Virus record (IMG/VR): IMGVR_UViG_3300048999_000173
Span: 1 to 64,000 of that record
Source of the DNA: a virus
Direction: 5' to 3' (one strand)
DNA: 64,000 nucleotides
Shown one piece after another: positions 4,345 through 47,981 of the stretch (position 1 is its first letter; the number at the start of each line of letters is the position of its first letter). The position numbers and the translations under genes were made by a program. The notes under the pieces were generated by a model. It had not been told where the DNA came from and searched no databases. It saw only the letters and a list, made by a program, of their open reading frames with translations.

Positions 4345-4787
4345 ACGGTACGACCGAGGCCGACCTGGATAAGACGCGGCGTTACCTGCGCCCCGTGCGC
4401 GCCACGATCATCTCCGACGATCCGTACGGCGTGCACTTGGCCGTGTACTCGTGGCTGGAGTTGGGGTTCGACGCGTGGGTGACCGGCCCGGGGATCTGCG
4501 GGGAGTCCACGATGCAGGGCCCGCTGCCGGAGGGCACCGCGGTGACGTGCGCGGGGTGTCTCGAGCGGCAGGCGGACTACGAGCGGTACCTGGCGCCCGG
4601 CTACCTGCCCGAGGACGACAACCCGAAGATCCTGCGCCAGCGACTCGAGGAGGCTGAGGCGTCCCTGGTGCGGGTGCTGGCGTTCGCGGCGGAGATCGAC
4701 GACCGGACCTGGCGGGCACCGGGGACTGAGGTGGCGTTGCGGATCCGGTCCGTGGTCTCCGGGGAGCGGACGGAGGGCGGCCGGTGA
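4341..4787 (+). CDS. hypothetical protein, possible Zn-binding (H..C..CxxC)
   Basis: coupled GTG start with GGAGG RBS; VTCAGC motif. Confidence 0.7.
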   Translation: MNGTTEADLDKTRRYLRPVRATIISDDPYGVHLAVYSWLELGFDAWVTGPGICGESTMQGPLPEGTAVTCAGCLERQADYERYLAPGYLPEDDNPKILRQRLEEAEASLVRVLAFAAEIDDRTWRAPGTEVALRIRSVVSGERTEGGR

Positions 4788-5443
4788 CTGCGTACGGCAA
4801 CAGTGCGGCGCGTGAGGCTGCGGCGATTCGTGCGCGGGCCCGGAAGGGCGTGTGGCGGCGTCTGACGGCCGCGGTGGGGCTCAACCAGGCTGCCGTGCGG
4901 GCGGACGCTCAGGCGGCCCTGTGGGAGCGCGGCGCCCAAGGCGAGACCACGACCGCCCGCATGCTCGCCCAACTCGCCGGGCACGGCTGGCAGATCCGGC
5001 ACGACCTCCGATTACGGGGCCGCCGCTTCAACCTCGACCACGTCCTCATAGCCCCCGAAGGGACGGTGGTGGTGCTGGACACGAAGGTGTGGCATCGCGG
5101 CCAGCCCACCACTCTAGTCGGGGGCCGGGTGCACTGCGGGACGCAGGACCGGCACGACCAGGTCGTGAAGGTCGCCGGGTACGCGGCCGCCGTGCAGGAG
5201 GTGTTGGCGTTGCCGGGGGTGGTGGTGTGGCCGCTGCTCGTCGTCCACAACTCCCCGGTCCAGGACGGGGTCCTGACGGTGCAGGCGCCGGAGGCGGGAT
5301 GGGCGGGCCCCGTGTACGTGCTGTCGCCGCCGTACCTGGTACCGACGCTGGCCGGCGGTCCGAATCGGCTGGACCCGCGCCGTGCGGCCGCGGTGACCGC
5401 GCGGGTGGATGTAGTGCTTCGGCCGTACGCGGAGGGCGGTTGA
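4784..5443 (+). CDS. NERD (nuclease-related, PD-(D/E)xK) domain protein
   Basis: GAQGE...HDL...NLDHVLIAPEGTVVVLDTK...QV. Confidence 0.85.
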   Translation: MTAYGNSAAREAAAIRARARKGVWRRLTAAVGLNQAAVRADAQAALWERGAQGETTTARMLAQLAGHGWQIRHDLRLRGRRFNLDHVLIAPEGTVVVLDTKVWHRGQPTTLVGGRVHCGTQDRHDQVVKVAGYAAAVQEVLALPGVVVWPLLVVHNSPVQDGVLTVQAPEAGWAGPVYVLSPPYLVPTLAGGPNRLDPRRAAAVTARVDVVLRPYAEGG

Positions 5444-6999: not shown

Positions 7000-7400
7000 C
7001 AGAGCGGAATCCATCCGTCGCCGCCGTCGCCCTTCAGCGTGGCGTTGCAGTCGTAACAGATCCCCGTTCCACACCCAGGCTGGTCGCCCATCTCCTTGGT
7101 GTCGATGACGTTCTGGTGGGAGCAGTGGTTCTCCAGGACGTGCCACACCAGCAGCCCGTCCGAGGAGATCGCAGTGCGCGCGTTGCGTCCCAGGTAGCAG
7201 GGGATGGGCTGCCCGGTGCCGACGATCTGGAAGCCGCGCCGCATGTGCTGCTGGCTTGCGTGGCGGGCCAGGTACCAGACGTCGACGGCACCGGGGCGGC
7301 GTACAGCCGCGTGGAGGATGTCGCCGGTCAGGTCGACGCCATGCGGACGGTCGTCGATGGGGAGTTCGGTGCGGTGGATTACGTCCTGGGCAGCCAGCAT
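6999..7400 (-). CDS. hypothetical phage protein with C-terminal Cys/His cluster
   Basis: FQIVGTGQPIP...LVWHVLE motif; TGATG coupling. Confidence 0.75.
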   Translation of the reverse strand: MLAAQDVIHRTELPIDDRPHGVDLTGDILHAAVRRPGAVDVWYLARHASQQHMRRGFQIVGTGQPIPCYLGRNARTAISSDGLLVWHVLENHCSHQNVIDTKEMGDQPGCGTGICYDCNATLKGDGGDGWIPL

Positions 7401-7828
7401 CAGGGAGCCTCTTCGGCGGGCTGTGGGAGGTCGATGTGCTTGCTGTGGTGGAGCGGGGTGGTGGCGATGTCGCCAGCGGCTTCCTGTTCGGACAGCAGGT
7501 AGTACGTCTTGCCGCCGTCGTGGGAGAACGCCTCCGAGTTGCGGACGGATTGCCACAGAGGACTGGTCGTCATGCCTTCGGCGTACCGGTCGATCCACTC
7601 GTCGGGGTTGTCGGTAAGGTCGGACAGCGGCTGGTAGCGCAGGAGTTTGTCGAGGTAGAGCGCGGTGAAGTGGGCGCTGCCGCCGGAGTGGCCCATGTCG
7701 GCGAAGGCTTGGACGACACGGCACACGCCGTTGATGAAGTCTTGGTCCTCGCCGACGATTCGGAGTTCGCGGCGGGCGTGGGCGACGAGGTTGGACTCTT
7801 CGCGGGGGCGTTTCTGGGCTGGGGGCAT
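7400..7828 (-). CDS. conserved hypothetical phage protein
   Basis: NLVAHARREL...F..MGHSGGSA...PLSDLT..PDEW...WQSVRNSEAFS.DGGKTYY. Confidence 0.8.
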   Translation of the reverse strand: MPPAQKRPREESNLVAHARRELRIVGEDQDFINGVCRVVQAFADMGHSGGSAHFTALYLDKLLRYQPLSDLTDNPDEWIDRYAEGMTTSPLWQSVRNSEAFSHDGGKTYYLLSEQEAAGDIATTPLHHSKHIDLPQPAEEAP

Positions 7829-7875
7829 ACGTCCACGGTGCCGCGTTTCGGCGGGGGTGTTGCCCCCTGCTGGGT

Positions 7876-7929
7876 CGTGGGGCCTGGTGGTGGCTGCTTC
7901 CCCTTGTGAGCGCTCCACCGGGCCCCACG
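7876..7929 (-). terminator. long stem-loop immediately downstream of the DTTWG peptide gene
   Basis: CGTGGGGCCTGGTGG (7876-7890) and CCACCGGGCCCCACG (7915-7929) are 14/15 complementary. Confidence 0.6.
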
Positions 7930-7941
7930 CGTGCAGGGTGG

Positions 7942-8214
7942 TCAGCCCCAGGTGGTGTCGAGGGGGGTGACGGTGCCGCCGGTGCCCGTGCCGGGGTTGG
8001 TGGGCGGGGTGGTGCCGTCGGTGGTGGTGCCGTTGTCGACGGTGGGGGTGGTGTCGGGGGCGCCCCAGGTGGTGTCGCCCTGCGGGCTGGCGATGAGGTC
8101 GTTGGTGAGGGCGGCGCCGGTCGCGGTCGCGGCGGCGAGTCCGAGGCCGGCGGCGATGGTGCGGAAGCGGAGGGTTTTTGCGGGTTTCGGGGTGCGGTGT
8201 TTTCCGTGACTCAC
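7942..8214 (-). CDS. secreted pre-peptide with two DTTWG units (candidate signalling peptide)
   Basis: AAGAGGT RBS; basic n-region, hydrophobic h-region (IAAGLGLAAATATGAAL), Thr/Gly/Pro linker; DTTWG both internal and C-terminal. Confidence 0.85.
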   Translation of the reverse strand: MSHGKHRTPKPAKTLRFRTIAAGLGLAAATATGAALTNDLIASPQGDTTWGAPDTTPTVDNGTTTDGTTPPTNPGTGTGGTVTPLDTTWG

Positions 8215-8506
8215 AAAGGACCTCTTTCTTCGGATTGTTCGGATGTGTGGACAAACTGTAAAGGGGGCGTCTTGCCCGTTCTCGTGCTCAATGATCCTGC
8301 TGCGAATCCCGTTGCCCCCAGGGCGTGTTACTGGCAGTTACACGCATGGGGTGGGGGGAAGGACATTGAGTACGAGCGTCGGGGGACGCCCCACGTGAAT
8401 GCTGCCGTAGGCTGTTTGCACACTCAACCTGTTCACGCTGCGTATTGCCGCAGTGCGCGTTCCCGCAGCGGGACGGTCTGTTTTCTCGGGGGATCGAACG
8501 GTGGTC

Positions 8507-9556
8507 ATGGAATCTGGGATAGGCGGCGACACCCTGCTGTTGTCGGAGGACGCGGTCCGGGTTTTCGGACTGATCGCCGCTGGTGCGCCGCTCGCGGACG
8601 GGGATGCGGAATTCGTTGCCGAACTCACCACCCTCGGCTATGTGGTGATCAATTCGGAGCACGGGAAGCTGGTCGCATTGGACCCGCGGCACGTGTCCAT
8701 GCGCCGGCTGAAGCAGGAGCTCGCGGAGGCCGCGGAACGCGTCAGCACCCTCCGCGCGCTCCCCGACACCACGAAGGACCTCCTCGCCCAGTTCGAGCAC
8801 TCCCAACTCCGGGCTGGTGAGGGAGCCGAGTACATTCACGACGTGGCGGTGGTCAACACCCGCCTCGATGATGTCGTTGGCGGCGCGGAGTGGGAGATCC
8901 TCGCCGCGCAGCCCGGCGGCCCCCGCACCCGCGAACAACTCGACCGCTCCATGGCCCGTGACACGGCCGCCCTGGACCGCGGGGTGGTGAAACGCACCCT
9001 GTACCGAGCGAGTGTGCGCGACAACCCGGTGACAGCCGAGTACGCGCGGACGATGTCCCACCGCGTCGCGGGCCGTCCTGCGGAGTTCGCAACGCTGACG
9101 GAGCCGTTCGAGCGGGTCATCATCGTCGACCGCAGGACGGCGTTCATCTCCAACCACCTGGTCGCGGACGGCCCGGAGCATGCGGCGTGGCAGGTGACGG
9201 ATCAGGCCGTCATCGCCTACATGGTCGCGGAGTTCGATGAGAAGTGGCGGCGCGCGGACCCGTGGAAGGGCGAGGTCCGCGGCAGGGCGCTGGACATGAT
9301 GTGCGGGCCGGGCGCGGGCGGGGTGCGCACTACCGCCCGGCAGCGGGAGATCATGCGGGACATGGTCGCCGGGAAGGACCAGCGGGCGACGGCGGCCCGC
9401 CTGGAGGTGTCACCCCGGACGGTGTCCGACGAGATCAAGGAACTGAAGAGCCTGTTCGACGCGGAGTCGCGGGAGCAGCTGGCGTTCAAGTGGGCGTTCT
9501 CCCAGGACCGCCTGGTCGGCGTGAACCCGGCGGCCGGGGTGGAGGCCGCGGCGTAG
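8507..9556 (+). CDS. TrmB-like sensor / LuxR-family C-terminal HTH transcriptional regulator
   Basis: central ILAAQPGG..RGVVKRTLY..RVIIVDRRTAFI..FDEKWRRA.PW domain; C-terminal TARQREIMRDMVAG...ARLEVSPRTV. Confidence 0.85.
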   Translation: MESGIGGDTLLLSEDAVRVFGLIAAGAPLADGDAEFVAELTTLGYVVINSEHGKLVALDPRHVSMRRLKQELAEAAERVSTLRALPDTTKDLLAQFEHSQLRAGEGAEYIHDVAVVNTRLDDVVGGAEWEILAAQPGGPRTREQLDRSMARDTAALDRGVVKRTLYRASVRDNPVTAEYARTMSHRVAGRPAEFATLTEPFERVIIVDRRTAFISNHLVADGPEHAAWQVTDQAVIAYMVAEFDEKWRRADPWKGEVRGRALDMMCGPGAGGVRTTARQREIMRDMVAGKDQRATAARLEVSPRTVSDEIKELKSLFDAESREQLAFKWAFSQDRLVGVNPAAGVEAAA

Positions 9557-9560
9557 GCCG

Positions 9561-10151
9561 CTACTCGGCAGGATGGCCCGGGCACAGACGCGGACTGTCG
9601 TACCGCGGGCAGCGCGGGCAGTCCGCGGCAGTACCGCCCCACGGAGTCGCTGGCTTCCTGGTCGCGTTCGACGGCTGCACGCCCTTGATGACCGCCAACT
9701 CGCGCTGCACGGCGGTCAGCTTGGCCAGGTATTCGGCGGCCTGCTGCTGCCAGTCCGGTGCCGCGCCCGCGCGGAGGCGGCCGGTCATGAACCGGTCCCA
9801 GCCTTCCAGCGCGTACTCCAGGTCCTTGATGCGGGCACGGAGGCCTTCCGGGTCGCGGTCCTGACGCAGTTCAGCAACCTCCGCCTCGAGGCGCCGCATG
9901 TCGGCAGCAGCGCGGACCTTCTGCCGTTCCTTGCCCTTGTCGAAGCCCCGCCCGAACGCGGCCCGGCGCTCCTCGCGCGGGCACTCCGCAATCCACTTGG
10001 CGAGCGCGGCCGCCGCGTCGCGGTGCTCCTGCGCGCGCTCGGGGTCGTCCTGCTCGAGTTCGTCGATGCTCCGGTAGTCGTACTCGCGGGACAACTGGTC
10101 GGGGAGGCGCTGCTCCACGGTCAGATGGTCCGGGGTGGGCTCATCGGTCAC
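9561..10151 (-). CDS. hypothetical coiled-coil protein
   Basis: GTGA-coupled; C-terminal CPRC..CPGH. Confidence 0.75.
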   Translation of the reverse strand: MTDEPTPDHLTVEQRLPDQLSREYDYRSIDELEQDDPERAQEHRDAAAALAKWIAECPREERRAAFGRGFDKGKERQKVRAAADMRRLEAEVAELRQDRDPEGLRARIKDLEYALEGWDRFMTGRLRAGAAPDWQQQAAEYLAKLTAVQRELAVIKGVQPSNATRKPATPWGGTAADCPRCPRYDSPRLCPGHPAE

Positions 10152-10294
10152 GGCAGGTCGTCCTCGTCCAGGGTTGGCTGTTCGTAGCGCGGTGTCAGGT
10201 CGATGGTCTCCTGGCCCTCGAGCGGTTCCGGTGTCGGCTGCGCCAGGCTGGCCTGTAACGCGGCCACGCGGTCGCTGATGGCCGGGTCGGTCAC
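10148..10294 (-). CDS. small hypothetical protein (48 aa)
   Basis: MTDPAISDRVAALQASLAQPTPEPLEGQETIDL...; GTGA overlaps at both ends. Confidence 0.65.
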   Translation of the reverse strand: MTDPAISDRVAALQASLAQPTPEPLEGQETIDLTPRYEQPTLDEDDLP

Positions 10295-10692
10295 CGGCCG
10301 CTCCTGGGCTCTTTGAGACGCGTCTCCGCCTCGTACTGGTACTGCTCCGCCTTCTCCCGGGCCATGTCGGCGGTCTCCTTGCGGCCTTCCAGGTACCAGT
10401 ACTCGCCCTTCAGTGCCTCACCGCCGGGCGGCAGGTTGTCGACGTAGTCGGCGAAAGCGCGGAGGACTTGGGCGGCATGCCGGTCCAGGGCGGCCTTGAA
10501 AGCGCGCGGGTCAACGATGCCCCCGAGTCCGGTTGCGAGGGTGAAGGCCATGCCCTCGAGTTCCGTGCGGGCGTCGCATGCGCAGCGGACACCGCCATCG
10601 TGGTGGGGTGGGTCGGGTTCGACGGTGATGAGGTTGCGGCATTGGTCGGGGAAGCCGGCGCACGGCTGCGGGTCGGGCGGGTTTCCAGTCAT
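10291..10692 (-). CDS. hypothetical protein
   Basis: AGGAG RBS, ATGA coupling. Confidence 0.7.
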   Translation of the reverse strand: MTGNPPDPQPCAGFPDQCRNLITVEPDPPHHDGGVRCACDARTELEGMAFTLATGLGGIVDPRAFKAALDRHAAQVLRAFADYVDNLPPGGEALKGEYWYLEGRKETADMAREKAEQYQYEAETRLKEPRSGR

Positions 10693-17640: not shown

Positions 17641-18843
17641 TCACGCCGCTAGGGCGTTGATCGCCTCGACCGTGGCCGCCGCGGTCTGGTTACCGGCGTA
17701 CCGAGGTGCGCTGAGCATCCCCGCCACCCGCTCCATCCGCTTCACGATCCACGAAATCTGCTCCTCCACTGGCAACGACAGCACCGCCGCCAGGGCATCG
17801 GCCGCACCCTCCACGTCATCGAGCTGCACGCGCGCCGTCGCCAGGTAGATGTGCGCCAGCCGCTCATCGTCCAGCGACCGCTCATCCGCCGGACCCGACT
17901 GCCACAACGCGATCGCCTCAATGGCCTCCCGCGCCGCGCGCTCCGCATCGTGGCCGCCTTGCAGCCAGATCAGCGAAGACCCCGCGTAGTAGCACTGCTT
18001 CGCCCTCGAGAACCCGAACAGACCCTCCAGGGAGTCCGCCTTGCGGATCCGCTCCCGCGCCGCTTCGGCGCCGTCCAGGGCCTGGTTCGCGGCCCGGCTG
18101 TCTCCCAGGTTGGCCAGGCACTGGGCCTCACCACACCGCAGACGAGTCTCACCGGTCCCGTGCCCGTGACCGACCCACTGGTAGCCGTCCCGCACGTACT
18201 CCAGCGCGCGCCCGTAGTCGCCCTGGAAACGGGCGATCAACGACTTCGTGCCAGCCACCCACGCGGACAGCTCCGCGTCCCCGGCGAACTCCGCGCACCG
18301 CCCGGCCGCCGTCGCATGCTCGAGCGCCTCATCGGCGTCGCCCATGTCCAGCAGCGCATACGACAGCACACCCGACAGGCGTCCGGCCGTCACGTACAGG
18401 TCCGAACGGTCCTGCGGCCGGTGATGCCCCGAACGGATCCGCTCGAACGCCTCACCACGCAGCACGTGCGCCCGGTCCATCATCGGCCCCGGGGGAGACG
18501 CCAGATAGTCGACCGCCGTGACCGCGACACCCTCCTGAAGTTCGGAGATGTCCAGGTCCGCGAGCGCGGACAGGTCCCGCGACATCGCCAACGCCGCCGC
18601 GCGGGTGCGGTGCACGGCCGCGGCCTCACGCCGCGCCAGGTCCTCACGCCGCCACTGAGCGACGAGCCGACCGCCCGCCTGCAGCGCTTCGTCGGCGGCT
18701 TCCGCCACCTCGAGCGGCGCAGGCCTGCGCCCGGTCTCCCAGTGGTGCAGAGACGTCCGGTCGTAGTGGATGTGCTGCGCCAGCCGGGCCAGCGACATGC
18801 CAGCCTCCAAGCGCAGCGTACGAAGCAGCTCCGGGAAGGTCAT
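17641..18843 (-). CDS. XRE-HTH plus TPR-like transcriptional regulator
   Basis: LRTLRLEAGMSLARLAQHIHYDRTSLHHWETGRR; Ala-rich helical repeats; GAGGAGG RBS. Confidence 0.85.
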   Translation of the reverse strand: MTFPELLRTLRLEAGMSLARLAQHIHYDRTSLHHWETGRRPAPLEVAEAADEALQAGGRLVAQWRREDLARREAAAVHRTRAAALAMSRDLSALADLDISELQEGVAVTAVDYLASPPGPMMDRAHVLRGEAFERIRSGHHRPQDRSDLYVTAGRLSGVLSYALLDMGDADEALEHATAAGRCAEFAGDAELSAWVAGTKSLIARFQGDYGRALEYVRDGYQWVGHGHGTGETRLRCGEAQCLANLGDSRAANQALDGAEAARERIRKADSLEGLFGFSRAKQCYYAGSSLIWLQGGHDAERAAREAIEAIALWQSGPADERSLDDERLAHIYLATARVQLDDVEGAADALAAVLSLPVEEQISWIVKRMERVAGMLSAPRYAGNQTAAATVEAINALAA

Positions 18844-30290: not shown

Positions 30291-30848
30291 ATGGCCTGGT
30301 CGAAATACAAGCTGGACGAAGTCATCGTCCGCCGCACCAAACTCCTCGAGCTGCGCCGCCAAGGCGTCCGATACGACGACGAGCGCATCGAGAAGCTCGG
30401 CTACAGCAGCCCCGGCGCCGCCCGCAAAGACCTCGCACGCGCCCTCGAAGCCCACCGCGACGAGGAAGCCGCCGAGGTCGGCATCTACCGGCAGCAGGAG
30501 AACGAACGCCTCGACGCCCTTCTCGAGGCCGTATGGTCGCGCGCCACCACCCTCTCACCCGTCCTCGATAAGGAAGGCGAGGTCATAGACCACGTCCTGG
30601 ACGTGAAGGCCGTCGACACCGTGCTGCGCCTCATGGACCGCCGCGCCAAACTCAACGGCCTTGACATGCCCGTCAAGGCGGAACTGTCCGGGCCCAACGG
30701 AGGCGCCCTGAGGATCGGGCCGGCCGGAATCGATGAACTGAACAAGCTGATCAACATGGCTGGCGACCCCGACGCCGAAGACGACGCCCCGGTCGAAGAC
30801 GAAGAACTGGAAGACGGCGACGTGGATGACGACGGCGACCACACCTGA
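30291..30848 (+). CDS. terS: terminase small subunit
   Basis: HTH (LELRRQGVRY..IEKLGYSSPGAARKD); RLMDRRAKLNGLD; immediately upstream of TerL. Confidence 0.8.
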   Translation: MAWSKYKLDEVIVRRTKLLELRRQGVRYDDERIEKLGYSSPGAARKDLARALEAHRDEEAAEVGIYRQQENERLDALLEAVWSRATTLSPVLDKEGEVIDHVLDVKAVDTVLRLMDRRAKLNGLDMPVKAELSGPNGGALRIGPAGIDELNKLINMAGDPDAEDDAPVEDEELEDGDVDDDGDHT

Positions 30849-32442
30849 CCAGTGGGACGGCCTCGAAGAACACGAAGTCGTCCAAGAGGCCGAAGCCCTC
30901 CTCCAACTCGTCGCCCGCTACCGGCGCCTCAACCGCGCCCAACGCCGCCGCATCGCCTTCCAGGCCAGCCCCGAAGTCCGCAGCGTCCTGGCCCAGGTCG
31001 AGTGCGACATGGCGCTCGAGCGATCCCCCGGCTCGATGGCCGCAGTCCTCACCGACGGACGCGAAAAGCAGGCCCGCCACCTCGACCTGATCGACCGAGT
31101 GTTCCGCGACATCGCCCGCGGCCACTCCCGCAAGGTCCTCATCACCATGCCCCCACGGCACGGCAAGTCCCGCCGCGCCGCCCGCTGGGCCCCCCTGTGG
31201 TTCCTGTCCCGGCACCCCGACCGCCGCGTAATGATCGCCTCCTACAGTGCCGACCTCGCCGACGACCACGGCCGGTGGATCCGCGACGCGATCGTCTCCT
31301 ACGGCCCCCAACTCGGCCTCGCCCTCCACGCCGGATCCAAGGCCGCCAACCGCTTCGACCTCGCCGACCCCGAGACCGGAGAACGCCTCGAAGGCGGCCT
31401 CGTCACCGCAGGCGTCGGCGGAGGCCTCACCGGCAAGGGCGCCCACCTCGCGATCGTCGACGACCCCATCAAGGACGCCGCAGACGCCGAATCACCCACC
31501 ATGCGCAAACGGCTGTGGGAGTGGTGGACATCCGTCCTCAACACCCGCGTCGAACCCGGCGGATCCATCATCGTCATCCAGACCAGATGGCACGAAAAGG
31601 ACCTCGCCGGCCGCATCCTCGAAGGCGAAGACGCCTCCGACTGGACCGTCATCGACCTGCCCGCGATCTGCGACAGCGAAGACGACCCCCTGGGCCGGGA
31701 GATCGGACAGCCGCTGTGGCCCATCCGATACGGCCTCAAAGCCCTCGAGAAGATCCGGCGCGCGGTCGGGGAACGCGTCTGGTGGTCCCTCTTCCAGCAG
31801 AAGCCACGCCCCCTCGAAGGCGGCGTGTGGAAGTGGCCATGGATCACCGACAACCGGATCAGTGCCGAGCGCTACCGGGCTGTCGACCTTTCGCGCACCG
31901 TCGTCGCCGTCGACCAGGCCGGAGGCGAGGGCGACACCCACGACGAGACCGGCATCATCGGCGCCGGCCGGACCACCGACGGCAACATGTACGTCCTCGC
32001 CGACCGGTCGGCGAACATGGGCGCGGACACGTGGGGGCACGTAGCGTGCCGCCTGGCCATCGAGCTGAAGGCCGACGCGTTCGTCGTCGAAGACAACTTC
32101 GGCGGCGACCAGTCCTCCCAGATCATCCGTCAGGCTTGGCGTGACCTGCAACGATCCGGGGAGACGGAGGGCCTCATCATGCCCCTGATCATCCCCGTGC
32201 ACGCCAAGCAGGGTAAGAAGCTTCGCGCCGAACCCATCGGCCAACTCGCTGCGCAGGCCCTCATCCACCACGTCGGCGAGTTCCCCCGCCTCGAAGGCCA
32301 GTTGGTCACCTGGATACCCGGCATGGATTCCCCGGACCGTATGGACGCCTACGTTCACGCCCTCACCGAACTTGCCGACCCTGCGCAAGAGGGCATCGGC
32401 GCTCAGCAGTATTCCGACCAGCGCCTCCGAGGCCGCCGCTGA
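30826..32442 (+). CDS. terL: terminase large subunit
   Basis: MPPRHGKS, AIVDDP, IIVIQTRWH, nuclease VAVD, DETGII, SPDRMDA. Confidence 0.95.
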   Translation: MTTATTPDQWDGLEEHEVVQEAEALLQLVARYRRLNRAQRRRIAFQASPEVRSVLAQVECDMALERSPGSMAAVLTDGREKQARHLDLIDRVFRDIARGHSRKVLITMPPRHGKSRRAARWAPLWFLSRHPDRRVMIASYSADLADDHGRWIRDAIVSYGPQLGLALHAGSKAANRFDLADPETGERLEGGLVTAGVGGGLTGKGAHLAIVDDPIKDAADAESPTMRKRLWEWWTSVLNTRVEPGGSIIVIQTRWHEKDLAGRILEGEDASDWTVIDLPAICDSEDDPLGREIGQPLWPIRYGLKALEKIRRAVGERVWWSLFQQKPRPLEGGVWKWPWITDNRISAERYRAVDLSRTVVAVDQAGGEGDTHDETGIIGAGRTTDGNMYVLADRSANMGADTWGHVACRLAIELKADAFVVEDNFGGDQSSQIIRQAWRDLQRSGETEGLIMPLIIPVHAKQGKKLRAEPIGQLAAQALIHHVGEFPRLEGQLVTWIPGMDSPDRMDAYVHALTELADPAQEGIGAQQYSDQRLRGRR

Positions 32443-42737: not shown

Positions 42738-45700
42738 GTGGCCAACTGGAACCTGTCGGTAGACCTGCGCGGGCACGGCAACGACCTCGCCCAGTCCCTG
42801 AAGTCGTCCGCGAAGAACGCCCGCACCCTCGCCAACGCCGCCCGAACGGCGAAGACCGAGGTGAAGGAGCTCGGTCAGGCGTCGCTCACCGCGTCCCGGC
42901 ACGTACGCACCCTCGGCAGCGAAGCCCGCACCACCGCGCGCCGCCTCAACTCCCTGGGTGACGGCGCCCAGACCGCGGCCCGCCGCCTCACTCGCTACGG
43001 AGATGCAGCACAGACCGCGAACCGGCACGTTAACTCCCTGGGCGACAACTCCCGCACCAGTGCCCGGCAGCTGGCCCGCATGTCCGGGCAGATCGACACC
43101 GCCGTCCGCGACCTGCTGCGCCTGGCCGACGCCGCCCGGCGCGCCGACGCCCGCCTGACCCGGGTGGGCGGCGCGGGCGTTACCGGGGTGCGCCGCTACA
43201 GCGAGGAGACCGGCCGGCTGCGCAGCCACCTCGTGTCGGTGGCCGCTCTGCTGTCCGGCGGCGCCCTGGTCATGGGTGCCGGGGAACTGATCAAGCAGGG
43301 CAACGAGTACCAGCAGGCGATGAACGCGTTCGGTGCGACCACCGGCGCCACGCAGATGCAGATGAAGCGGGCCGGAGCGACCGCCAACCAGCTCGGCGGC
43401 GACCTGAAACTCCCCGGGGCGACCGCCGCGGACGCTGCCGACGCCATGGTGGAACTCGCCAAGGCGGGATTCCGGACCGACCAGGCGATCTCCGCCACCC
43501 GGGCCAGCCTCACGCTCGCGTCCGCCGCGCAGGTCAACGCCGCCGACAGCGCGAAGTACTTGGGCGACATGATGGACCAGTTCGGCCTCGGCGCCGACCA
43601 GGCGTCCGTCGCCGCCGACACCCTGGCCGCCACCGCCAACGCCGCCAGCGGCGACATCACTGACATCTACTACGCGATGAAGTACGCCGGCCCGGTGGCG
43701 CACGGGCTCGGGATCTCCCTGCAGGAGACCGCGGCCGGCGTCGGCATGCTCGGCAAGGCGGGCATCCTCGGCCAGACCGCGGGTACCACGCTGCGCGGCA
43801 TGTTTGCCAACCTGGCGGCCCCCACCAAGCAGATGACCGAGGGCCTGGACTCCCTGGGCATCAAGGCGTGGGACGCGCAGGGCAACTTCAAGGGCCTCCG
43901 CAACATCATCGACGGCCTGTCCAAGGCCCAGCACACGATGAACCAGCAGGACTTCGCGGCCGCCGTGAAGAAGGCGTTCGGCAAGCCCGCGATGTCCGGT
44001 GCCATCGCCATGGCCCACCAGGGCACCGCCTCGTTCGACTCGCTGATGCAGTCCGTCTCCCAGACCGGGGCCGCATCGGAGATCGCCGCCGCCAAGGGCA
44101 AGGGCCTGGCCGGTGCGATGCTGCAGCTCAAGACGCAGGCCAAGCAGACCGGCCTGACGATCTACCAGGGGACGGCGCCCGGCCTCGAGCGCCTCACCCG
44201 CGCCGCCACCGACGGCCTGTCCAAGGCCACCCCGCACATCAAGGAGTTCTTCGACTACCTCAACTCCGCATCTGCCCTCCTGGGCCCCGACATCGGGAAC
44301 GCCCTGAAGAAGGAGTTCTCCGGGATCGGCGACGCGGCCGGCGACATGATGGCCCCGCTGAAGGACCTGGCCGGCACCGCAGCCGCCGACGGCCTCCACC
44401 TCCTGATCACCGCCGGGCAACTGGTCATCGAGGTCCTCAAGAACGCCGCCGACGCGATCCAGCCCATCGTGTCCGCCCTGGACGGCCTGTCCGGCGAGTC
44501 AGGGACCGTCGCCTCCACCATGGACCTCGTCGTCACCGCCCTCGACCTGGCCGCCACCGCCGCAGGCGCCCTCTCCGGTGTACTCGTCCCGATCGGGCAC
44601 GTCGTCGGCACCCTTGTCTCCGGGTTCGCCGCCCTGCCCGGCCCCATCCAGCAGTTCGTCCTCGCCGCGCTGCTGGTGCGCCGCATCCAGCCCGGCATGA
44701 CCGGCCTGGCCACCACCGTCCGCACCCGCGTCGGCGGCGCCTTCCAGGCCCTCAACCAGCAGATGGCCGTCCAGCGCGGCCTGGCCGCCTCCGCCGGGGT
44801 CTCCCTCACCCGCTACGGCGCCGCGATGGCCGTCCTCCAGACGCGGGTCCCGGTCATCGGGCAGATGGGCAACGCGTTCCGTACCGCCGCCACACAGGGC
44901 GAAGGCTTCCGCGGCACGCTGCGCGGCATCACGGCCGCCGCCGGGACCGGGCTGCGCGGCGCGATGGGTGGCCTGATGGGTGCGATGGGCGGCCCGTGGG
45001 GGCTCGCCCTGACCGGGCTCACCGTGGGCCTCGGGCTCCTCGCGGACTCCCAGCAGAAGGCGGCCGCGCGCGCTGCCGAGCACAAGGCCACCATCGACGG
45101 CCTCACCTCCGCGATGCGCCAGTCCAACGGGGTCATCGACGAGAACGTCCGCCAGCAGGCCGCCCAGACCATCCAGAACACGAAGCTGGCCGGCAGCAAC
45201 CAGACGCTGTCCACGTTCATGGGGAAGATGGGCTACAGCCTGTCCGACCTGACGGACGCCTACCTGGGCCAGGGCACCAGCGTCGACAAGCTCGCCGACA
45301 AAATGCTCAACCTGGCGCGGGCGAAGGGCGCGGAGGCCCTCAAGGACGGACCCCACAACGTGGACAAGTCCGTCATGGCGCAGGCCAACGCGTACGCCGC
45401 CGCCGGGAAGGCACTGAAGGGCATGTCGGGGGACGCCTCGACCGCGGCGAAGAACGCCAAGGACCTGGACGCGGCGACCAAGGGCACCGGCGACGGGGTC
45501 AGCGCCTACAGCAGGCTCAAGGACGCCGTCACGGCGCTCGGCGACAAGACCGCGGACGCCGACCAGCGCACCCGGGCCCTGCGGGACGCCCTCGACCTGC
45601 TGTCCGGCGGGTCCGTGTCACTCCAGGCCGCGCAGGCCCGCGTGAACGAGGCCATCACCAACGCCAACGAGGCGATGCAGGAAGGCATCGACCACGCCGA

Positions 45701-47981
45701 CGGCTGGGGCAAGGCCCTCATCAAGGCCAACGGGTCCCTGGACACCACCACGAAGAACGGGCAGGGCCTGTTCAACACGTTCAACACGATCGCCGACGGC
45801 GCGTCCAACGCCGCGGTGGCCGCCTACGACTTCGCCCAGTCCCAGGGCAAGGACCTGCCTTCCTCGCTGGCCGCCGCGCGCCGGGAGATGCAGTCCGCCC
45901 GGGACTCCGCGGTCAAGCTGGGCACCCAGTACGGGCTGAGCAAGACGCAGGCCGAAGGCGTCGCTGACTCCCTGGGCCTGATCCCCGGACAGGTTTCGAT
46001 CCTCCTCCAGACCGAGGGCGTCGACTCCACCCTGTCCGAACTGGTCGCCGTACAGGCCGCGTTCCAGCAGGTCCCGAACTCGAAGACGGTGACGGTCGAT
46101 TCGATCAGCACCCAGGCGAAGGCGGACCTGGAGGACCTGGGCTACAAGATCGAGCTGATCCCCGGCACGCGCGAATACAAGATCACGGCGCCGACGAAGC
46201 AAGCCCGCGACGACCTCGACCTCCTCATCGGCGAGATGTCCAAGGTCCCGCCCGCCAAGGGCGTCCAGGTCGACGCGAAGACCGCAGTCGCCATCGGTGA
46301 ACTCGAAGCCGTCCAGGCCAAGATCGAGACGACGCACGGCAAGACCATCACCATGAAGGCGCCGACCGCGGCGGCTCAGACCCAGCTCGAAGCCCTCGGC
46401 TTCAAGATTCATCAGGTGCCGGGGTCGAAGAACGTCACCATCAGCGTCCCCACCGGCGGCCCGAAGAGCGCGGTCAGCTCCATCCAGAGCGCCATCAACA
46501 GCCTCCACGGCAAGACGGTCACCAACTACGTCAACTCGATCGTCACGACCACGAAGAAGTCCGTTCACGAGGTCGTCGGCAACGCGGACGGCGGCGTGTG
46601 GGACTACTTCGCCGACGGCGGCGTCCGCGCGCCCCGCGTCACCAAGTTCGCCGGTGGCAGCGAGAACCACGTCGCACAGATCGCCCGCGGTGGCGACTGG
46701 CGCATGTGGGCGGAACCCGAGACTCACGGCGAGGGCTACGTCCCCTTCGCCCGCTCCAAGCGACCCCGCTCCCGGAAGATCACCGAAGAGATCGTGCGGC
46801 GCCTGGGTGGCGACCCGTCCGCCATCCAGTGGAACGCCGACGGCAACGTCACCGACTGGCGCTACGACCCCGCCACCGGCTCCCTCTACTCCGCCTCCGA
46901 CGCCGGACAGGCAGGCCACAAGACCAAGAAGGTGAAGGTCAAGGTCAAGGGAAAGGTCACGACGAAGGACGTCGACTACTTCGACATCGGGGCTGTCGAA
47001 GCGAAGCTGAAGTCGGCGGCCAAGGCGACCACGGCCTGGAACAAGGACCTCGAGAAGGTCGCGGACCGGGCCGGCGGAGACGTCGCCGACGCCCTCGCGG
47101 GCATGGGCGAGGACGGCATGAAGCTCGCCCACAAGATGGCCACCGGCAGCACCAAGTACATCAACGACATGGCGGCCGCCCTCCGCAACCTGCAGAAGAC
47201 CGCGAAGGCTTCCCTGACGGACTACACCCGCCAGCTCGGGCAGTCCAACACCCTGACCAAGGCGTTCTCCGACAACCTGGCCAAGCTGGCCGCTGAGGGA
47301 TTTGGCGACCTCGCCTCCCAGCTGGCCGCGCAGAACGACCAGGCAGCGCAGGAACTGGCCGCCGCCGCGGTGAAGGACAAGGGCAAGGCGTCGAAGGCGA
47401 ACGCCGCGGCGAAGACCGCGAACAACGCGCTGACCGCCGACCAGGTCTCCGAGCTCGTGCAGATCATCGCAGCGATCGGCACATCGAAGACCGGCATCCA
47501 CGACGTGGCCGCGAAAACGCTCCTGGGCGAGGACGAGATCATCACCGTCGGGAACAAGGCGAAGGCGCAGATCTCCAAGGCGCTCGGCACCCGCGCCACC
47601 AAGTTCCTCGCCGACCTCGGGCGCGCCAACAACCACCTGTCGTACGCCGACGGCGGCATCCGCTCCGGGATCTACGCCACCCGGGGCGGCGCCGTCACGT
47701 TCGCGGAGCCGGAGACCGGCGGCGAAGGCTTCATCCCCCTCAGCCCGAGCAAGCGGCGCAGCGCCCTGCCTGTCCTCGGGGACATCGCACACCGCTTCGG
47801 CCTGGGCCTGACCGACGTGGCCGCCTCCCGCGCGGTAGTCGTCATCCGGGAGGGCGGCGACACCCACGTCAGCGTCACCGCGGTCCGCACCGGCGCCACC
47901 GCGTCCGACATCGGATCGCAGGTCGGGCGCTCCGTCCGCCGCGCGCGCAGGGGAGGGGTGAACGCCCGTGCCGGATCTTGA
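42738..47981 (+). CDS. tape measure protein (TP901-type core)
   Basis: 1747 aa, Ala-rich helical; GILGQTAGTTLR, DAQGNFKGL; C-terminal ADGG..AEPETxGE motifs. Confidence 0.95.
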   Translation: MANWNLSVDLRGHGNDLAQSLKSSAKNARTLANAARTAKTEVKELGQASLTASRHVRTLGSEARTTARRLNSLGDGAQTAARRLTRYGDAAQTANRHVNSLGDNSRTSARQLARMSGQIDTAVRDLLRLADAARRADARLTRVGGAGVTGVRRYSEETGRLRSHLVSVAALLSGGALVMGAGELIKQGNEYQQAMNAFGATTGATQMQMKRAGATANQLGGDLKLPGATAADAADAMVELAKAGFRTDQAISATRASLTLASAAQVNAADSAKYLGDMMDQFGLGADQASVAADTLAATANAASGDITDIYYAMKYAGPVAHGLGISLQETAAGVGMLGKAGILGQTAGTTLRGMFANLAAPTKQMTEGLDSLGIKAWDAQGNFKGLRNIIDGLSKAQHTMNQQDFAAAVKKAFGKPAMSGAIAMAHQGTASFDSLMQSVSQTGAASEIAAAKGKGLAGAMLQLKTQAKQTGLTIYQGTAPGLERLTRAATDGLSKATPHIKEFFDYLNSASALLGPDIGNALKKEFSGIGDAAGDMMAPLKDLAGTAAADGLHLLITAGQLVIEVLKNAADAIQPIVSALDGLSGESGTVASTMDLVVTALDLAATAAGALSGVLVPIGHVVGTLVSGFAALPGPIQQFVLAALLVRRIQPGMTGLATTVRTRVGGAFQALNQQMAVQRGLAASAGVSLTRYGAAMAVLQTRVPVIGQMGNAFRTAATQGEGFRGTLRGITAAAGTGLRGAMGGLMGAMGGPWGLALTGLTVGLGLLADSQQKAAARAAEHKATIDGLTSAMRQSNGVIDENVRQQAAQTIQNTKLAGSNQTLSTFMGKMGYSLSDLTDAYLGQGTSVDKLADKMLNLARAKGAEALKDGPHNVDKSVMAQANAYAAAGKALKGMSGDASTAAKNAKDLDAATKGTGDGVSAYSRLKDAVTALGDKTADADQRTRALRDALDLLSGGSVSLQAAQARVNEAITNANEAMQEGIDHADGWGKALIKANGSLDTTTKNGQGLFNTFNTIADGASNAAVAAYDFAQSQGKDLPSSLAAARREMQSARDSAVKLGTQYGLSKTQAEGVADSLGLIPGQVSILLQTEGVDSTLSELVAVQAAFQQVPNSKTVTVDSISTQAKADLEDLGYKIELIPGTREYKITAPTKQARDDLDLLIGEMSKVPPAKGVQVDAKTAVAIGELEAVQAKIETTHGKTITMKAPTAAAQTQLEALGFKIHQVPGSKNVTISVPTGGPKSAVSSIQSAINSLHGKTVTNYVNSIVTTTKKSVHEVVGNADGGVWDYFADGGVRAPRVTKFAGGSENHVAQIARGGDWRMWAEPETHGEGYVPFARSKRPRSRKITEEIVRRLGGDPSAIQWNADGNVTDWRYDPATGSLYSASDAGQAGHKTKKVKVKVKGKVTTKDVDYFDIGAVEAKLKSAAKATTAWNKDLEKVADRAGGDVADALAGMGEDGMKLAHKMATGSTKYINDMAAALRNLQKTAKASLTDYTRQLGQSNTLTKAFSDNLAKLAAEGFGDLASQLAAQNDQAAQELAAAAVKDKGKASKANAAAKTANNALTADQVSELVQIIAAIGTSKTGIHDVAAKTLLGEDEIITVGNKAKAQISKALGTRATKFLADLGRANNHLSYADGGIRSGIYATRGGAVTFAEPETGGEGFIPLSPSKRRSALPVLGDIAHRFGLGLTDVAASRAVVVIREGGDTHVSVTAVRTGATASDIGSQVGRSVRRARRGGVNARAGS

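What the first reader, a model, noticed from the sequence alone, without database searches (positions are those of the whole stretch)
7876..9556. Candidate peptide communication system: secreted DTTWG pre-peptide divergent from a TrmB-sensor/LuxR regulator
Seen: a 90-aa ORF (8214-7942) has a Sec-like signal peptide followed by a T/G/P linker. Its only informative sequence is DTTWG, present twice (identical 15-nt copies at 8062-8076 and 7945-7959), with the second copy at the exact C-terminus. It has its own RBS and a strong downstream stem-loop, so it looks monocistronic. Across a ~290-bp lower-GC spacer lies a regulator with a TrmB/PLD-like putative ligand-binding domain and a LuxR HTH. Established: Phr and arbitrium AimP precursors of Firmicutes have this signal + short C-terminal peptide layout next to their receptor, but use RRNPP (TPR) receptors. 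Inference: the element releases a short Trp-containing peptide, e.g. (G/L)DTTWG, that is re-imported and sensed by a non-RRNPP receptor. It could control lysis versus plasmid maintenance or conjugation according to density. I know of no characterised system of this type in Streptomyces phages.
Basis: partly seen in the sequence, partly recalled or inferred. Interest (0 to 1): 0.92.

Follow-up and report, generated by a model that had tools for sequence, protein, structure and literature searches.

The report
Secreted Trp-peptide with paired regulator
A Streptomyces phage-plasmid carries a tiny exported protein holding two copies of the peptide DTTWG back-to-back with an unusual regulator; the same pairing recurs across actinobacterial phages, plasmids and chromosomes, so it is a strong but untested candidate for gene-encoded peptide signalling in a phylum thought to signal with small molecules.

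Summary
A 90-aa ORF (7942-8214, minus strand) has a signal peptide, a T/G/P linker and two DTTWG copies, the second at the exact C-terminus. A 286-bp, 59% GC spacer separates it from a divergent regulator (8501-9556). That regulator folds as a TrmB-like winged helix, a long helix and a PLD-like domain, followed by a LuxR HTH.

Of 55 regulator homologues from genomes, 47 have a small secreted D-[T/S]-x-W ORF within 800 bp. The same detector gave one false hit in 316 kb of flanking DNA. The pairing survives a change of gene order (divergent in Streptomyces, convergent in Nocardioidaceae) and also appears in phage Chymera and in Streptomyces chromosomal paralogues.

The core differs between clades, with 18 variants seen, yet all copies within one precursor were identical in 32 of 37 cases. 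No modifying enzyme or dedicated transporter is linked. Pfam, NCBIfam and the literature searches returned nothing on it.

This scan has reported the same module several times on other DNA.

Verdict: a real two-gene module, most likely non-RRNPP peptide signalling (about 0.55).

The parts
7942..8214 (-). Propeptide gene, 90 aa, GTG start. Basic n-region, then hydrophobic signal segment, T/G/P-rich linker and two DTTWG cores.
   Evidence: GC3 0.91. 25 homologues keep QGDTTWGAPDT and the C-terminal DTTWG. No Pfam, PHROG or NCBIfam family matches.
8062..8076 (-). Core copy 1 (DTTWG, residues 47-51), a few residues after the predicted signal-peptidase region.
   Evidence: identical 16-nt copy at 8062-8077.
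7945..7959 (-). Core copy 2 (DTTWG, residues 86-90), at the exact C-terminus and followed by the stop codon at 7942-7944.
   Evidence: The C-terminal position is kept in almost all Streptomyces relatives.
7876..7929 (-). Strong stem-loop just downstream of the propeptide gene. It is terminator-like but lacks a T-run.
   Evidence: pair I2, 15-nt arms, 93% complementary. (-59.4 kcal/mol for 116 nt, z = -3.7).
8215..8500 (.). Divergent control region, 59% GC. Its invariant blocks across 13 phage-plasmid relatives are GGGGCGTC (8263-8270), CCTGCTGCGA (8296-8305), TGGCAG (about 8332-8337) and TACGAGCGTCGGGGGACGCCCC (8371-8392).
   Evidence: Alignment A3 has nucleotide blocks that are invariant although the regulators are only 45-66% identical. 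The boxes occur nowhere else in the window above chance.
8408..8413 (+). Candidate -10 hexamer (TAGGCT) of the regulator promoter. The T, A and final T are invariant in all 13 relatives.
   Evidence: Invariant columns T194, A195 and T199 of A3. This is an inference and no transcription start site was mapped.
8399..8427 (-). Candidate distal promoter of the propeptide gene: -35 TTGAGT at 8427-8422 and -10 CAGCAT at 8404-8399, spacer 17. It would give a leader of about 180 nt.
   Evidence: Invariant TCAA and A185/T189/G190 columns of A3. The leader folds at -74 kcal/mol, z = -3.9. A metatranscriptome contig of a relative about 90% identical covers 7940-8361. A proximal alternative is the -10 TACAGT at 8260-8255. 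Unresolved.
8501..9556 (+). Regulator, 351 aa from GTG 8501 or 349 aa from ATG 8507. Numbered from the ATG: winged HTH (residues 14-57), long helix (60-99), PLD-like alpha/beta domain (101-250), linker, LuxR/GerE HTH (277-336).
   Evidence: Residues kept in at least 90% of 59 family members all lie in the PLD-like domain or the HTH: E130, P136, R140, R151, D152, R158, R163, Y166, R171, R195, R203, D208, W247.

Best explanation
This is a self-contained two-gene peptide-signalling module carried by an 83.6-kb Streptomyces phage-plasmid.

- Export: the propeptide leaves the cell by the general secretion pathway.
- Processing: signal peptidase and extracellular or cell-wall proteases release short peptides built on the D-T-T-W-G core. 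The C-terminal copy needs only one cut.
- Sensing: the peptide accumulates with the density of cells carrying the element. An oligopeptide permease takes it up again, and it binds the PLD-like (TrmB-type) domain of the adjacent cytoplasmic regulator.
- Response: binding changes how the regulator's two DNA-binding domains act on the conserved divergent promoter region. This gives feedback on the peptide gene and on the regulator gene. It may also drive read-through into the leftward genes, with the Tad3 anti-defence gene first.

Shown:
- the two genes, their anatomy and the regulator fold;
- the very strong, order-independent linkage of the pair across actinobacteria;
- diversification of the core between clades alongside homogeneity within a precursor;
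- the conserved control region.

Inferred:
- secretion, processing and uptake;
- peptide binding to the regulator;
- the sign of regulation;
- the phage decision that is controlled.
For: (1) Linkage. 47 of 55 regulator homologues from species genomes have a small signal-peptide ORF with D-[T/S]-x-W within 800 bp. The same detector gave 1 false hit in 316 kb of flanks.

(2) Gene order. The pair survives rearrangement. It is divergent in Streptomyces, Leifsonia and Kitasatospora, and convergent just downstream of the regulator in Nocardioidaceae and MAGs. The other neighbours differ between contexts.

(3) What is conserved in the small protein. Only the 4-5 residue core and the leader are conserved. 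Linker length and sequence are free.

(4) Position of the core. It sits at a terminus.
- In Nocardioidaceae, Kitasatospora and phage Chymera it follows directly, or within 1-2 residues, a textbook AxA signal-peptidase site. Examples are AHA|DTSWG, AQA|DTGWG and AQA|DPGWG.
- In Streptomyces a copy is also at the exact C-terminus.

(5) Diversity of the core. 18 different cores were seen across the family, yet all copies within a precursor were identical in 32 of 37 multi-copy precursors. The core type follows the regulator clades, with the DSVW clade at SH-aLRT 100.

(6) The regulator. It has a TrmB-type ligand-domain fold and no other sensory domain. It also has an invariant charged and aromatic residue set in that domain across all clades.

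(7) What is absent. No modifying enzyme, dedicated exporter or kinase is linked.

(8) Phage context. In the cultured temperate phage Chymera the pair lies beside the integrase and immunity repressor genes.

(9) Control region. The intergenic region is conserved at nucleotide level and is unique within the element.

(10) Expression hint. The only contig from a soil RNA library that spans more than a few dozen bases of the 2.2-kb stretch covers the small gene plus 147 nt upstream. This is a weak hint only.
Against: - No experiment and no co-fold supports binding.
- Solved TrmB domains bind sugars, not peptides (established knowledge of TrmB, PDB 2f5t and 3qph).
- Seven near-invariant arginines in the PLD-like domain would equally suit an anionic small molecule such as a phosphorylated or nucleotide ligand.
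- Motif type tracking the regulator clade is what co-inheritance alone gives. Within-precursor homogeneity can arise from repeat homogenisation at the DNA level, and the two copies here share an identical 16-nt stretch.
- Mixed precursors exist, for example DTTWG with DTGWG, or DTAWG with DTGWG. So the variable position may not set specificity.
- Many distinct phage-plasmids share the same DTTWG core, which would allow cross-talk.
- In Streptomyces the first core is often 5-15 residues beyond the likely signal-peptidase site, so extra processing has to be assumed.
- No regulator boxes were found elsewhere in the element, so the output is unknown.
Confidence: 0.55

Rival explanations
1. Regulated secreted effector. 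The regulator senses something else, or nothing: a sugar, a phosphorylated or nucleotide-type ligand, or no ligand as in TrmBL2. It simply controls the neighbouring gene. The small exported protein then acts outside the cell through its repeated Trp motifs and is never sensed back. Possible roles are cell-wall or receptor binding, superinfection exclusion, surface activity or antagonism.
For: - The fold match is to sugar-binding TrmB and to ligand-free TrmBL2.
- The conserved site is arginine-rich.
- A regulator paired with its target gene is a common reason for conserved linkage.
- Up to 8 repeats per protein (L056) fit a multivalent binder.
- In chromosomal clusters one peptide gene sits beside 2-4 regulator paralogues.
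Against: - The Nocardioidaceae mature products would be only about 12-20 residues with one core. That is too small for a multivalent binder.
- Only the core is conserved, and it lies at a terminus.
- The core diversifies between paralogues while the leader stays conserved. This is the pattern of pheromone precursors.
- The pairing is kept in very different genomic contexts with no other conserved partner.
Confidence: 0.25
2. The peptide is a signal, but an unlinked receptor senses it, for example a membrane histidine kinase or a host regulator. The adjacent regulator only drives production of the peptide.
For: Many Gram-positive peptide signals are sensed at the membrane (established: the Agr and ComP types). 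Nothing here shows uptake.
Against: No kinase or membrane sensor is linked in any context examined. Strict one-to-one linkage with a cytoplasmic ligand-domain regulator across phages, plasmids and chromosomes is unexplained under this reading.
Confidence: 0.08
3. The small protein is the precursor of a modified (RiPP-like) Trp peptide. Candidate modifications are prenylation as in ComX, or disulfide or other cyclisation. It would be tailored by unlinked enzymes and would act as a natural product or as a modified pheromone.
For: - An invariant Trp is the modified residue in ComX (established knowledge).
- Nocardioidaceae versions carry CxxC or CxxxC right after the core, which suggests a disulfide loop.
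- Multi-core precursors are known among RiPPs.
Against: No tailoring enzyme, leader-peptide protease or dedicated exporter is linked at any locus. A classical Sec-type signal peptide is unusual for RiPP precursors.
Confidence: 0.06

Closest known systems
Arbitrium (AimR-AimP-AimX) of Bacillus SPbeta-like phages
   Same: Both are phage-borne. Both have a small Sec-exported propeptide whose active part is at the C-terminus. The gene lies next to a cytoplasmic DNA-binding receptor, and in phage Chymera the pair sits in the lysogeny module. Peptide variants differ between phage lineages.
   Different: The receptor is not a TPR protein and is unrelated to AimR. It is TrmB-like plus PLD-like plus LuxR HTH. 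The core is repeated 2-4 times. No aimX-like output was identified. The hosts are Actinomycetota. The family is also chromosomal and multi-copy in the hosts. No function has been tested.
RRNPP systems with tandemly duplicated propeptides (Rap-Phr, PlcR-PapR, NprR-NprX; PMC11343458, PMC10075063)
   Same: Two adjacent genes make up the module: a propeptide and an intracellular receptor. No dedicated exporter or tailoring enzyme is present. Some precursors hold several pheromone copies that are released by extracellular proteolysis.
   Different: The defining TPR receptor is absent. The systems are not homologous. RRNPP is confined to Bacillota, and Actinomycetota are described as using enzyme-made small molecules (PMC10075063).
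TrmB / TrmBL2 archaeal regulators (PDB 3qph, 2f5t, 5bpd)
   Same: They share the winged HTH, the long dimerisation helix and a non-catalytic PLD-like effector domain (Foldseek E 1.8e-12 to 8e-10).
   Different: This regulator carries an extra C-terminal LuxR/GerE HTH. No Pfam TrmB model matched at sequence level. Known TrmB ligands are sugars, and TrmBL2 has none. TrmB proteins are not paired with secreted peptides.
ComX pheromone of Bacillus subtilis
   Same: Both are short peptide signals built around an essential Trp near the C-terminus.
   Different: ComX has no signal peptide, needs the ComQ prenyltransferase and is sensed by the membrane kinase ComP. None of these is linked here.
The unidentified 655-Da peptide imported by the BldK oligopeptide permease of Streptomyces coelicolor (cited in PMC9640686)
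   Same: It is evidence that Streptomyces takes up a small extracellular peptide as a developmental signal. The size class of 5-6 residues matches core-containing peptides; DTTWG is 578.2 Da and GDTTWG is 635.3 Da.
   Different: No link has been shown. The S. coelicolor members of this family were not retrieved here, and the original paper could not be read. This is a lead only.

Membership tests
RRNPP / arbitrium peptide-receptor systems | Cytoplasmic receptor built of TPR repeats that binds the peptide | tested here: not met
   The model folds as winged HTH, long helix, PLD-like domain and LuxR HTH. The best structural matches are TrmBL2, TrmB and PLD, and no TPR appears. Pfam finds only GerE.
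RRNPP / arbitrium peptide-receptor systems | Small exported propeptide gene adjacent to the receptor gene | tested here: met
   47 of 55 homologous loci have one, as do phage Chymera and the chromosomal paralogues.
RRNPP / arbitrium peptide-receptor systems | Mature short peptide re-imported by Opp and bound by the receptor | not testable with these tools
This needs LC-MS, binding assays and permease mutants.
TrmB family regulators | N-terminal winged HTH, coiled-coil helix and C-terminal PLD-like effector domain | tested here: met
   Foldseek: 5bpd 1.8e-12, 3qph 8.1e-10, 2f5t 2.4e-5. The Pfam TrmB models themselves did not match, so the kinship is at fold level.
TrmB family regulators | Sugar as effector | not testable with these tools
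   No ligand prediction was possible. The conserved site is rich in Arg, Asp, Tyr and Trp.
LuxR/GerE (FixJ/NarL-type) HTH | C-terminal four-helix GerE DNA-binding domain | tested here: met
   PF00196 at 27.6 bits against a cut-off of 23.5. A profile search hits NarL, RhlR and GerE chains.
PLD superfamily enzymes | Catalytic HxK(x)4D (HKD) motif | tested here: not met
   The invariant columns of 32 and of 59 family members contain no conserved His-x-Lys.
ComX-type or RiPP pheromones | Linked tailoring enzyme (ComQ-like prenyltransferase, radical SAM and the like) and/or dedicated exporter | tested here: not met
   Neighbours in the window and in four other contexts were scanned with Pfam and none was found. 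Unlinked enzymes cannot be excluded.

The most novel reading that the evidence does not exclude
The pair is one member of a phylum-wide family of gene-encoded peptide quorum-sensing systems in Actinomycetota that is not related to RRNPP. The receptor would be a TrmB-like/LuxR regulator that reads a terminal D-x-x-W peptide.

Streptomyces chromosomes carry several diversified copies. Temperate phages and phage-plasmids have captured their own copies to measure the density of carrier cells. They would use that measure to set lysogeny, plasmid maintenance or transfer, and anti-defence expression.

The host copies could include the long-unidentified peptide imported by BldK.
Probability: 0.45. Interest if true: 0.95.

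Novelty: new variant of a known kind. Interest (0 to 1): 0.85.

Why it matters
Actinomycetota, including the antibiotic-producing Streptomyces, are described as communicating with enzyme-made small molecules such as gamma-butyrolactones. Gene-encoded peptide signalling with a cytoplasmic receptor is considered a trait of Bacillota (PMC10075063).

If this module works as proposed:
- It would add a second, non-homologous solution to the "propeptide plus intracellular receptor" design.
- It would extend phage-to-phage communication beyond Bacillus phages to actinophages and phage-plasmids.
- It would offer a concrete candidate family for the peptide signals that Streptomyces is known to import.

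It is directly testable. A cultured phage, Chymera on S. venezuelae ATCC 10712, and several complete plasmids of about 90 kb carry it. The predicted ligands are cheap synthetic pentapeptides or hexapeptides. It could also give orthogonal peptide-inducible switches for Streptomyces engineering.

Tried and rejected
- Co-folding: complex prediction of the regulator (residues 1-262) with the mature small protein was not available, so no co-fold evidence exists either way.
- Phage database: megablast of 7000-10500 against the phage collection gave no match.
- Rfam: the search on 7800-8600 gave only a sub-threshold chance hit.
- Literature:
  - Full-text searches for the core motifs and leader motif found nothing relevant.
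  - Searches for peptide signalling in Streptomyces or with TrmB-LuxR regulators also found nothing relevant.
  - The original BldK-signal paper is not held.
- Operator search:
  - A simple conserved palindromic operator was not found across relatives. The near-perfect 23-bp palindrome at 8323-8345 is specific to this window in sequence.
  - Its position corresponds to the one helix that shows compensatory changes.
- Leader RNA:
  - Consensus folding of the intergenic region on either strand gave little covariation, because most blocks are invariant.
  - The outer GGGGCGUC/GACGCCCC pairing is kept in 13 of 13 sequences on the peptide-sense strand. A structured leader RNA is plausible but not shown.
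- Other targets: the conserved boxes occur elsewhere in the window only at chance level, so no further regulator targets were found.
- Detector error, corrected: my first detector required two motif copies and wrongly scored most Nocardioidaceae loci as lacking a peptide. A tblastn search and a one-copy detector corrected this.
- Sequencing runs:
  - All runs were laid as contigs only, so they say nothing on expression levels, transcript ends or strand.
  - The single RNA-library contig may also be DNA carry-over.
- Exceptions seen:
  - L005 has a truncated regulator and no peptide.
  - L006 has lost its last core.
  - L010 has a degenerate first core.
  - In several chromosomal clusters no peptide was detected with my filters.
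Full report
WHAT IS THERE

The window belongs to an 83,576-bp virus record assembled from a soil metagenome. It carries a large terminase (30826-32442) and a tape-measure protein (42738-47981). Its relatives are Streptomyces plasmids and contigs of about 85-94 kb, so it is a Streptomyces phage-plasmid-type element.

The small ORF sits on the minus strand at 7942-8214 and encodes 90 aa.
- It starts with GTG, preceded by AAGAAAGAGG, and has GC3 0.91.
- It has a long basic n-region, an 18-residue hydrophobic segment and a T/G/P-rich linker.
- It has two DTTWG copies, at residues 47-51 and 86-90, the last directly before the stop codon.
- The two copies share an identical 16-nt stretch.
- A strong stem-loop (7876-7929, z = -3.7) follows the gene.

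Across a 286-bp spacer of 59% GC lies the regulator, whose best start is GTG 8501.
- Pfam sees only the C-terminal GerE/LuxR HTH.
- An AlphaFold model (pLDDT 84.8) shows a winged HTH, a 40-residue helix, an alpha/beta domain and the LuxR HTH.
- Foldseek puts TrmBL2 (1.8e-12), TrmB and PLD/Nuc folds first.
- There is no HKD motif.

IS THE PAIRING REAL?

The small protein has 25 database homologues. All keep a core right after the signal segment and one at the C-terminus, and some have a third copy.

I collected 55 regulator homologues from species genomes.
- In Streptomyces, Leifsonia and Kitasatospora a divergent small ORF with a signal peptide and 2-4 copies of D-[T/S]-x-W(G) lies 250-480 bp upstream (mostly 250-360). 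The last copy is at the exact C-terminus.
- My first filter missed the Nocardioidaceae and MAG loci. A tblastn search and a one-copy filter then showed that they too have a small secreted ORF.
  - It is convergent, usually 150-400 bp downstream of the regulator (about 1.5 kb in two loci), and 42-65 aa long.
  - The core follows a textbook AxA site directly or within 1-2 residues (AHA|DTSWG, AQA|DTGWG).
  - Usually a CxxC or CxxxC and a short tail follow.
- With one detector, 47 of 55 loci score within 800 bp of the regulator. Elsewhere there is one false hit in 316 kb.
- The other neighbours differ between contexts: GMC oxidoreductase or PucR, Sir2 or a permease, pckG, and phage genes. Only the pair is conserved.

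The pairing extends further.
- The cultured temperate phage Chymera (host S. venezuelae) has gp30, which reads AQA|DPGWG...NDPGWG-stop. It is divergent from gp29, a 29% identical regulator, and lies beside the integrase and immunity repressor genes.
- The wider regulator family is found in 183 of 201 Streptomyces species genomes, at 1-10 copies each.
- It comprises 221 clusters (50% identity) at E <= 1e-30.
- Chromosomal paralogues again sit next to small secreted ORFs. These have a conserved leader (MRTKPTM..RMLRS) and very different Trp cores: DAGWQ, DLPWT, DIAWG, DVGWS, DSTWV, NTSWP, EPSWE and DAIWN/DPVWN.

PATTERN OF VARIATION

On a tree of the 55 regulators the core type follows the clades.
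- There is a DTTW clade that includes the window, a DTGW/DTAW/DTWW clade, a DSVW clade (support 100) and a DTSW/DTGW Nocardioidaceae clade.
- This is what co-evolution predicts, but co-inheritance predicts it too.
- More telling, 18 different cores exist, yet all copies within one precursor are identical in 32 of 37 multi-copy precursors.
- The leader is more conserved than the mature part.
- Five precursors mix close variants (T, G or A at the third position).

In the regulator, the residues kept in at least 90% of 59 members from all clades are concentrated in the PLD-like domain: E130, P136, R140, R151, D152, R158, R163, Y166, R171, R195, R203, D208 and W247. This points to one conserved ligand site. 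That site could hold the invariant Asp and Trp of the peptide. It could equally suit an anionic small molecule.

CONTROL REGION

The intergenic DNA is conserved at nucleotide level among 13 phage-plasmid relatives whose regulators are only 45-66% identical.
- Invariant TAnnnT (8408-8413) fits a -10 for the regulator.
- Invariant TTGA-17-cAnnnT on the other strand (8427-8399) fits a distal promoter for the peptide gene, with a leader of about 180 nt.
- The ends of that leader (GGGGCGUC and GACGCCCC) pair in 13 of 13 sequences on that strand. The leader folds at -74 kcal/mol, z = -3.9.
- Because most blocks never vary, covariation cannot decide between RNA structure and protein-binding sites.
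- The boxes do not recur in the element. The regulator therefore probably acts here, and the output is unknown.
- The next gene downstream on the peptide strand is a Tad3 anti-Thoeris homologue. Read-through past the hairpin is a possibility I could not test.
- In one soil RNA library the only contig spanning more than a few dozen bases of this 2.2-kb stretch covers 7940-8361 of a relative about 90% identical. This is a weak hint of expression and of a long leader.

HOW IT MOST LIKELY WORKS

The best reading (about 0.55) is a secreted propeptide processed to short core-containing peptides. These are taken up and bind the PLD-like domain of the adjacent regulator, which acts on the divergent promoters.

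Rivals:
- The small protein is a regulated extracellular effector and the regulator senses something else (0.25).
- The peptide is a signal for an unlinked receptor (0.08).
- The peptide is modified by unlinked enzymes, which is compatible with signalling (0.06).

Against the effector reading, the mature products in Nocardioidaceae are 12-20 residues with a single core. The core also sits at a terminus, and the leader is conserved while the core diversifies.

Against the main reading, there are no binding data, TrmB ligands are sugars, and the conserved site is arginine-rich.

COMPARISON WITH WHAT IS KNOWN

It works like arbitrium and other RRNPP systems: a propeptide gene beside an intracellular receptor, with no tailoring genes and sometimes several pheromone copies per precursor (PMC11343458). 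It fails the defining membership feature, a TPR receptor.

It is a fold-level relative of TrmB with an added LuxR HTH. Pfam, PHROGs and NCBIfam have no family for any of the small proteins. Full-text searches found no description. A recent survey states that Actinomycetota typically signal with enzyme-made small molecules (PMC10075063).

Streptomyces is reported to import a 655-Da peptide through BldK as a developmental signal (PMC9640686). That peptide's relation to this family is an open lead.

EARLIER NOTES OF THIS SCAN

After my own analysis I found that this scan has reported the same kind of module at least ten times on other genomes. The cores there were DSTWG, DSVW, DTAWG, DTTWG and DTNWGG, plus a Nocardioides case, and the conclusions were similar. 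These are unchecked AI notes and I do not count them as support. I re-derived the recurrence independently here.

VERDICT

It is a new, non-homologous variant of the propeptide-plus-intracellular-receptor design. It occurs in a phylum and in phages where none is described.

Noticed in passing
window 7400-7828 (-): A Tad3 (type I Thoeris inhibitor) homologue, PF25185, E 6e-32. It is the next gene downstream of the propeptide gene on the same strand, separated only by the 7876-7929 hairpin. Peptide-promoter read-through could couple signalling to anti-defence.
   Followed up: partly
L028, L032-L035, L042-L045, L049 and others (Nocardioidaceae and MAG loci): GTP-dependent PEP carboxykinase (pckG) lies immediately upstream of the regulator and in the same orientation, with the peptide gene convergent downstream. 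Pfam confirmed pckG in L042 and L045; in the other loci it is read only from stray tblastn alignments. Mature peptides there would be 12-20 aa: DT[S/G]W(G) followed by CxxC or CxxxC, a possible disulfide loop.
   Followed up: partly
L094, L096-L100, L102 (Streptomyces core chromosomes): A conserved cluster of one small secreted ORF followed by two to four regulator paralogues. The ORF has the leader MRTKPTM..RMLRS. The mature Trp motif is hypervariable between species: DSKWD, NTSWP, DSHWP, VTEWP, DSVWP, DTVWS.
   Followed up: partly
L056 2329-2715 (-) and 2847-4850 (+): One precursor has eight repeats alternating two cores (DAIWN and DPVWN). It sits next to two tandem regulator paralogues, so two cores may match two receptors. 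This is a single case.
   Followed up: no
L060 (Streptomyces phage Chymera KU958700, gp29-gp33) and L065: A cultured temperate phage carries the pair (core DPGWG) beside its integrase and immunity repressor. An identical peptide occurs in one Streptomyces genome, presumably as a prophage. This is a ready experimental system.
   Followed up: partly
window 8263-8392: A nested imperfect palindrome of about 130 nt centred on an invariant TGGCAG. Only the innermost helix shows compensatory changes among relatives. It could be a structured leader RNA or a set of dyad protein sites.
   Followed up: partly
window 4784-5443 (+) and 17641-18843 (-): A NERD-domain protein (PF08378, 9e-12), and a 400-aa XRE-type HTH_31 protein with a long uncharacterised C-terminal region.
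   Followed up: no
plasmid records: 101 PLSDB plasmids hold a homologue of the regulator, 97 of them from Streptomyces. They include the 89.7-kb plasmid of S. ambofaciens ATCC 23877 (44% identity). Most are typed non-mobilizable and are about 88-94 kb, like this element.
   Followed up: no
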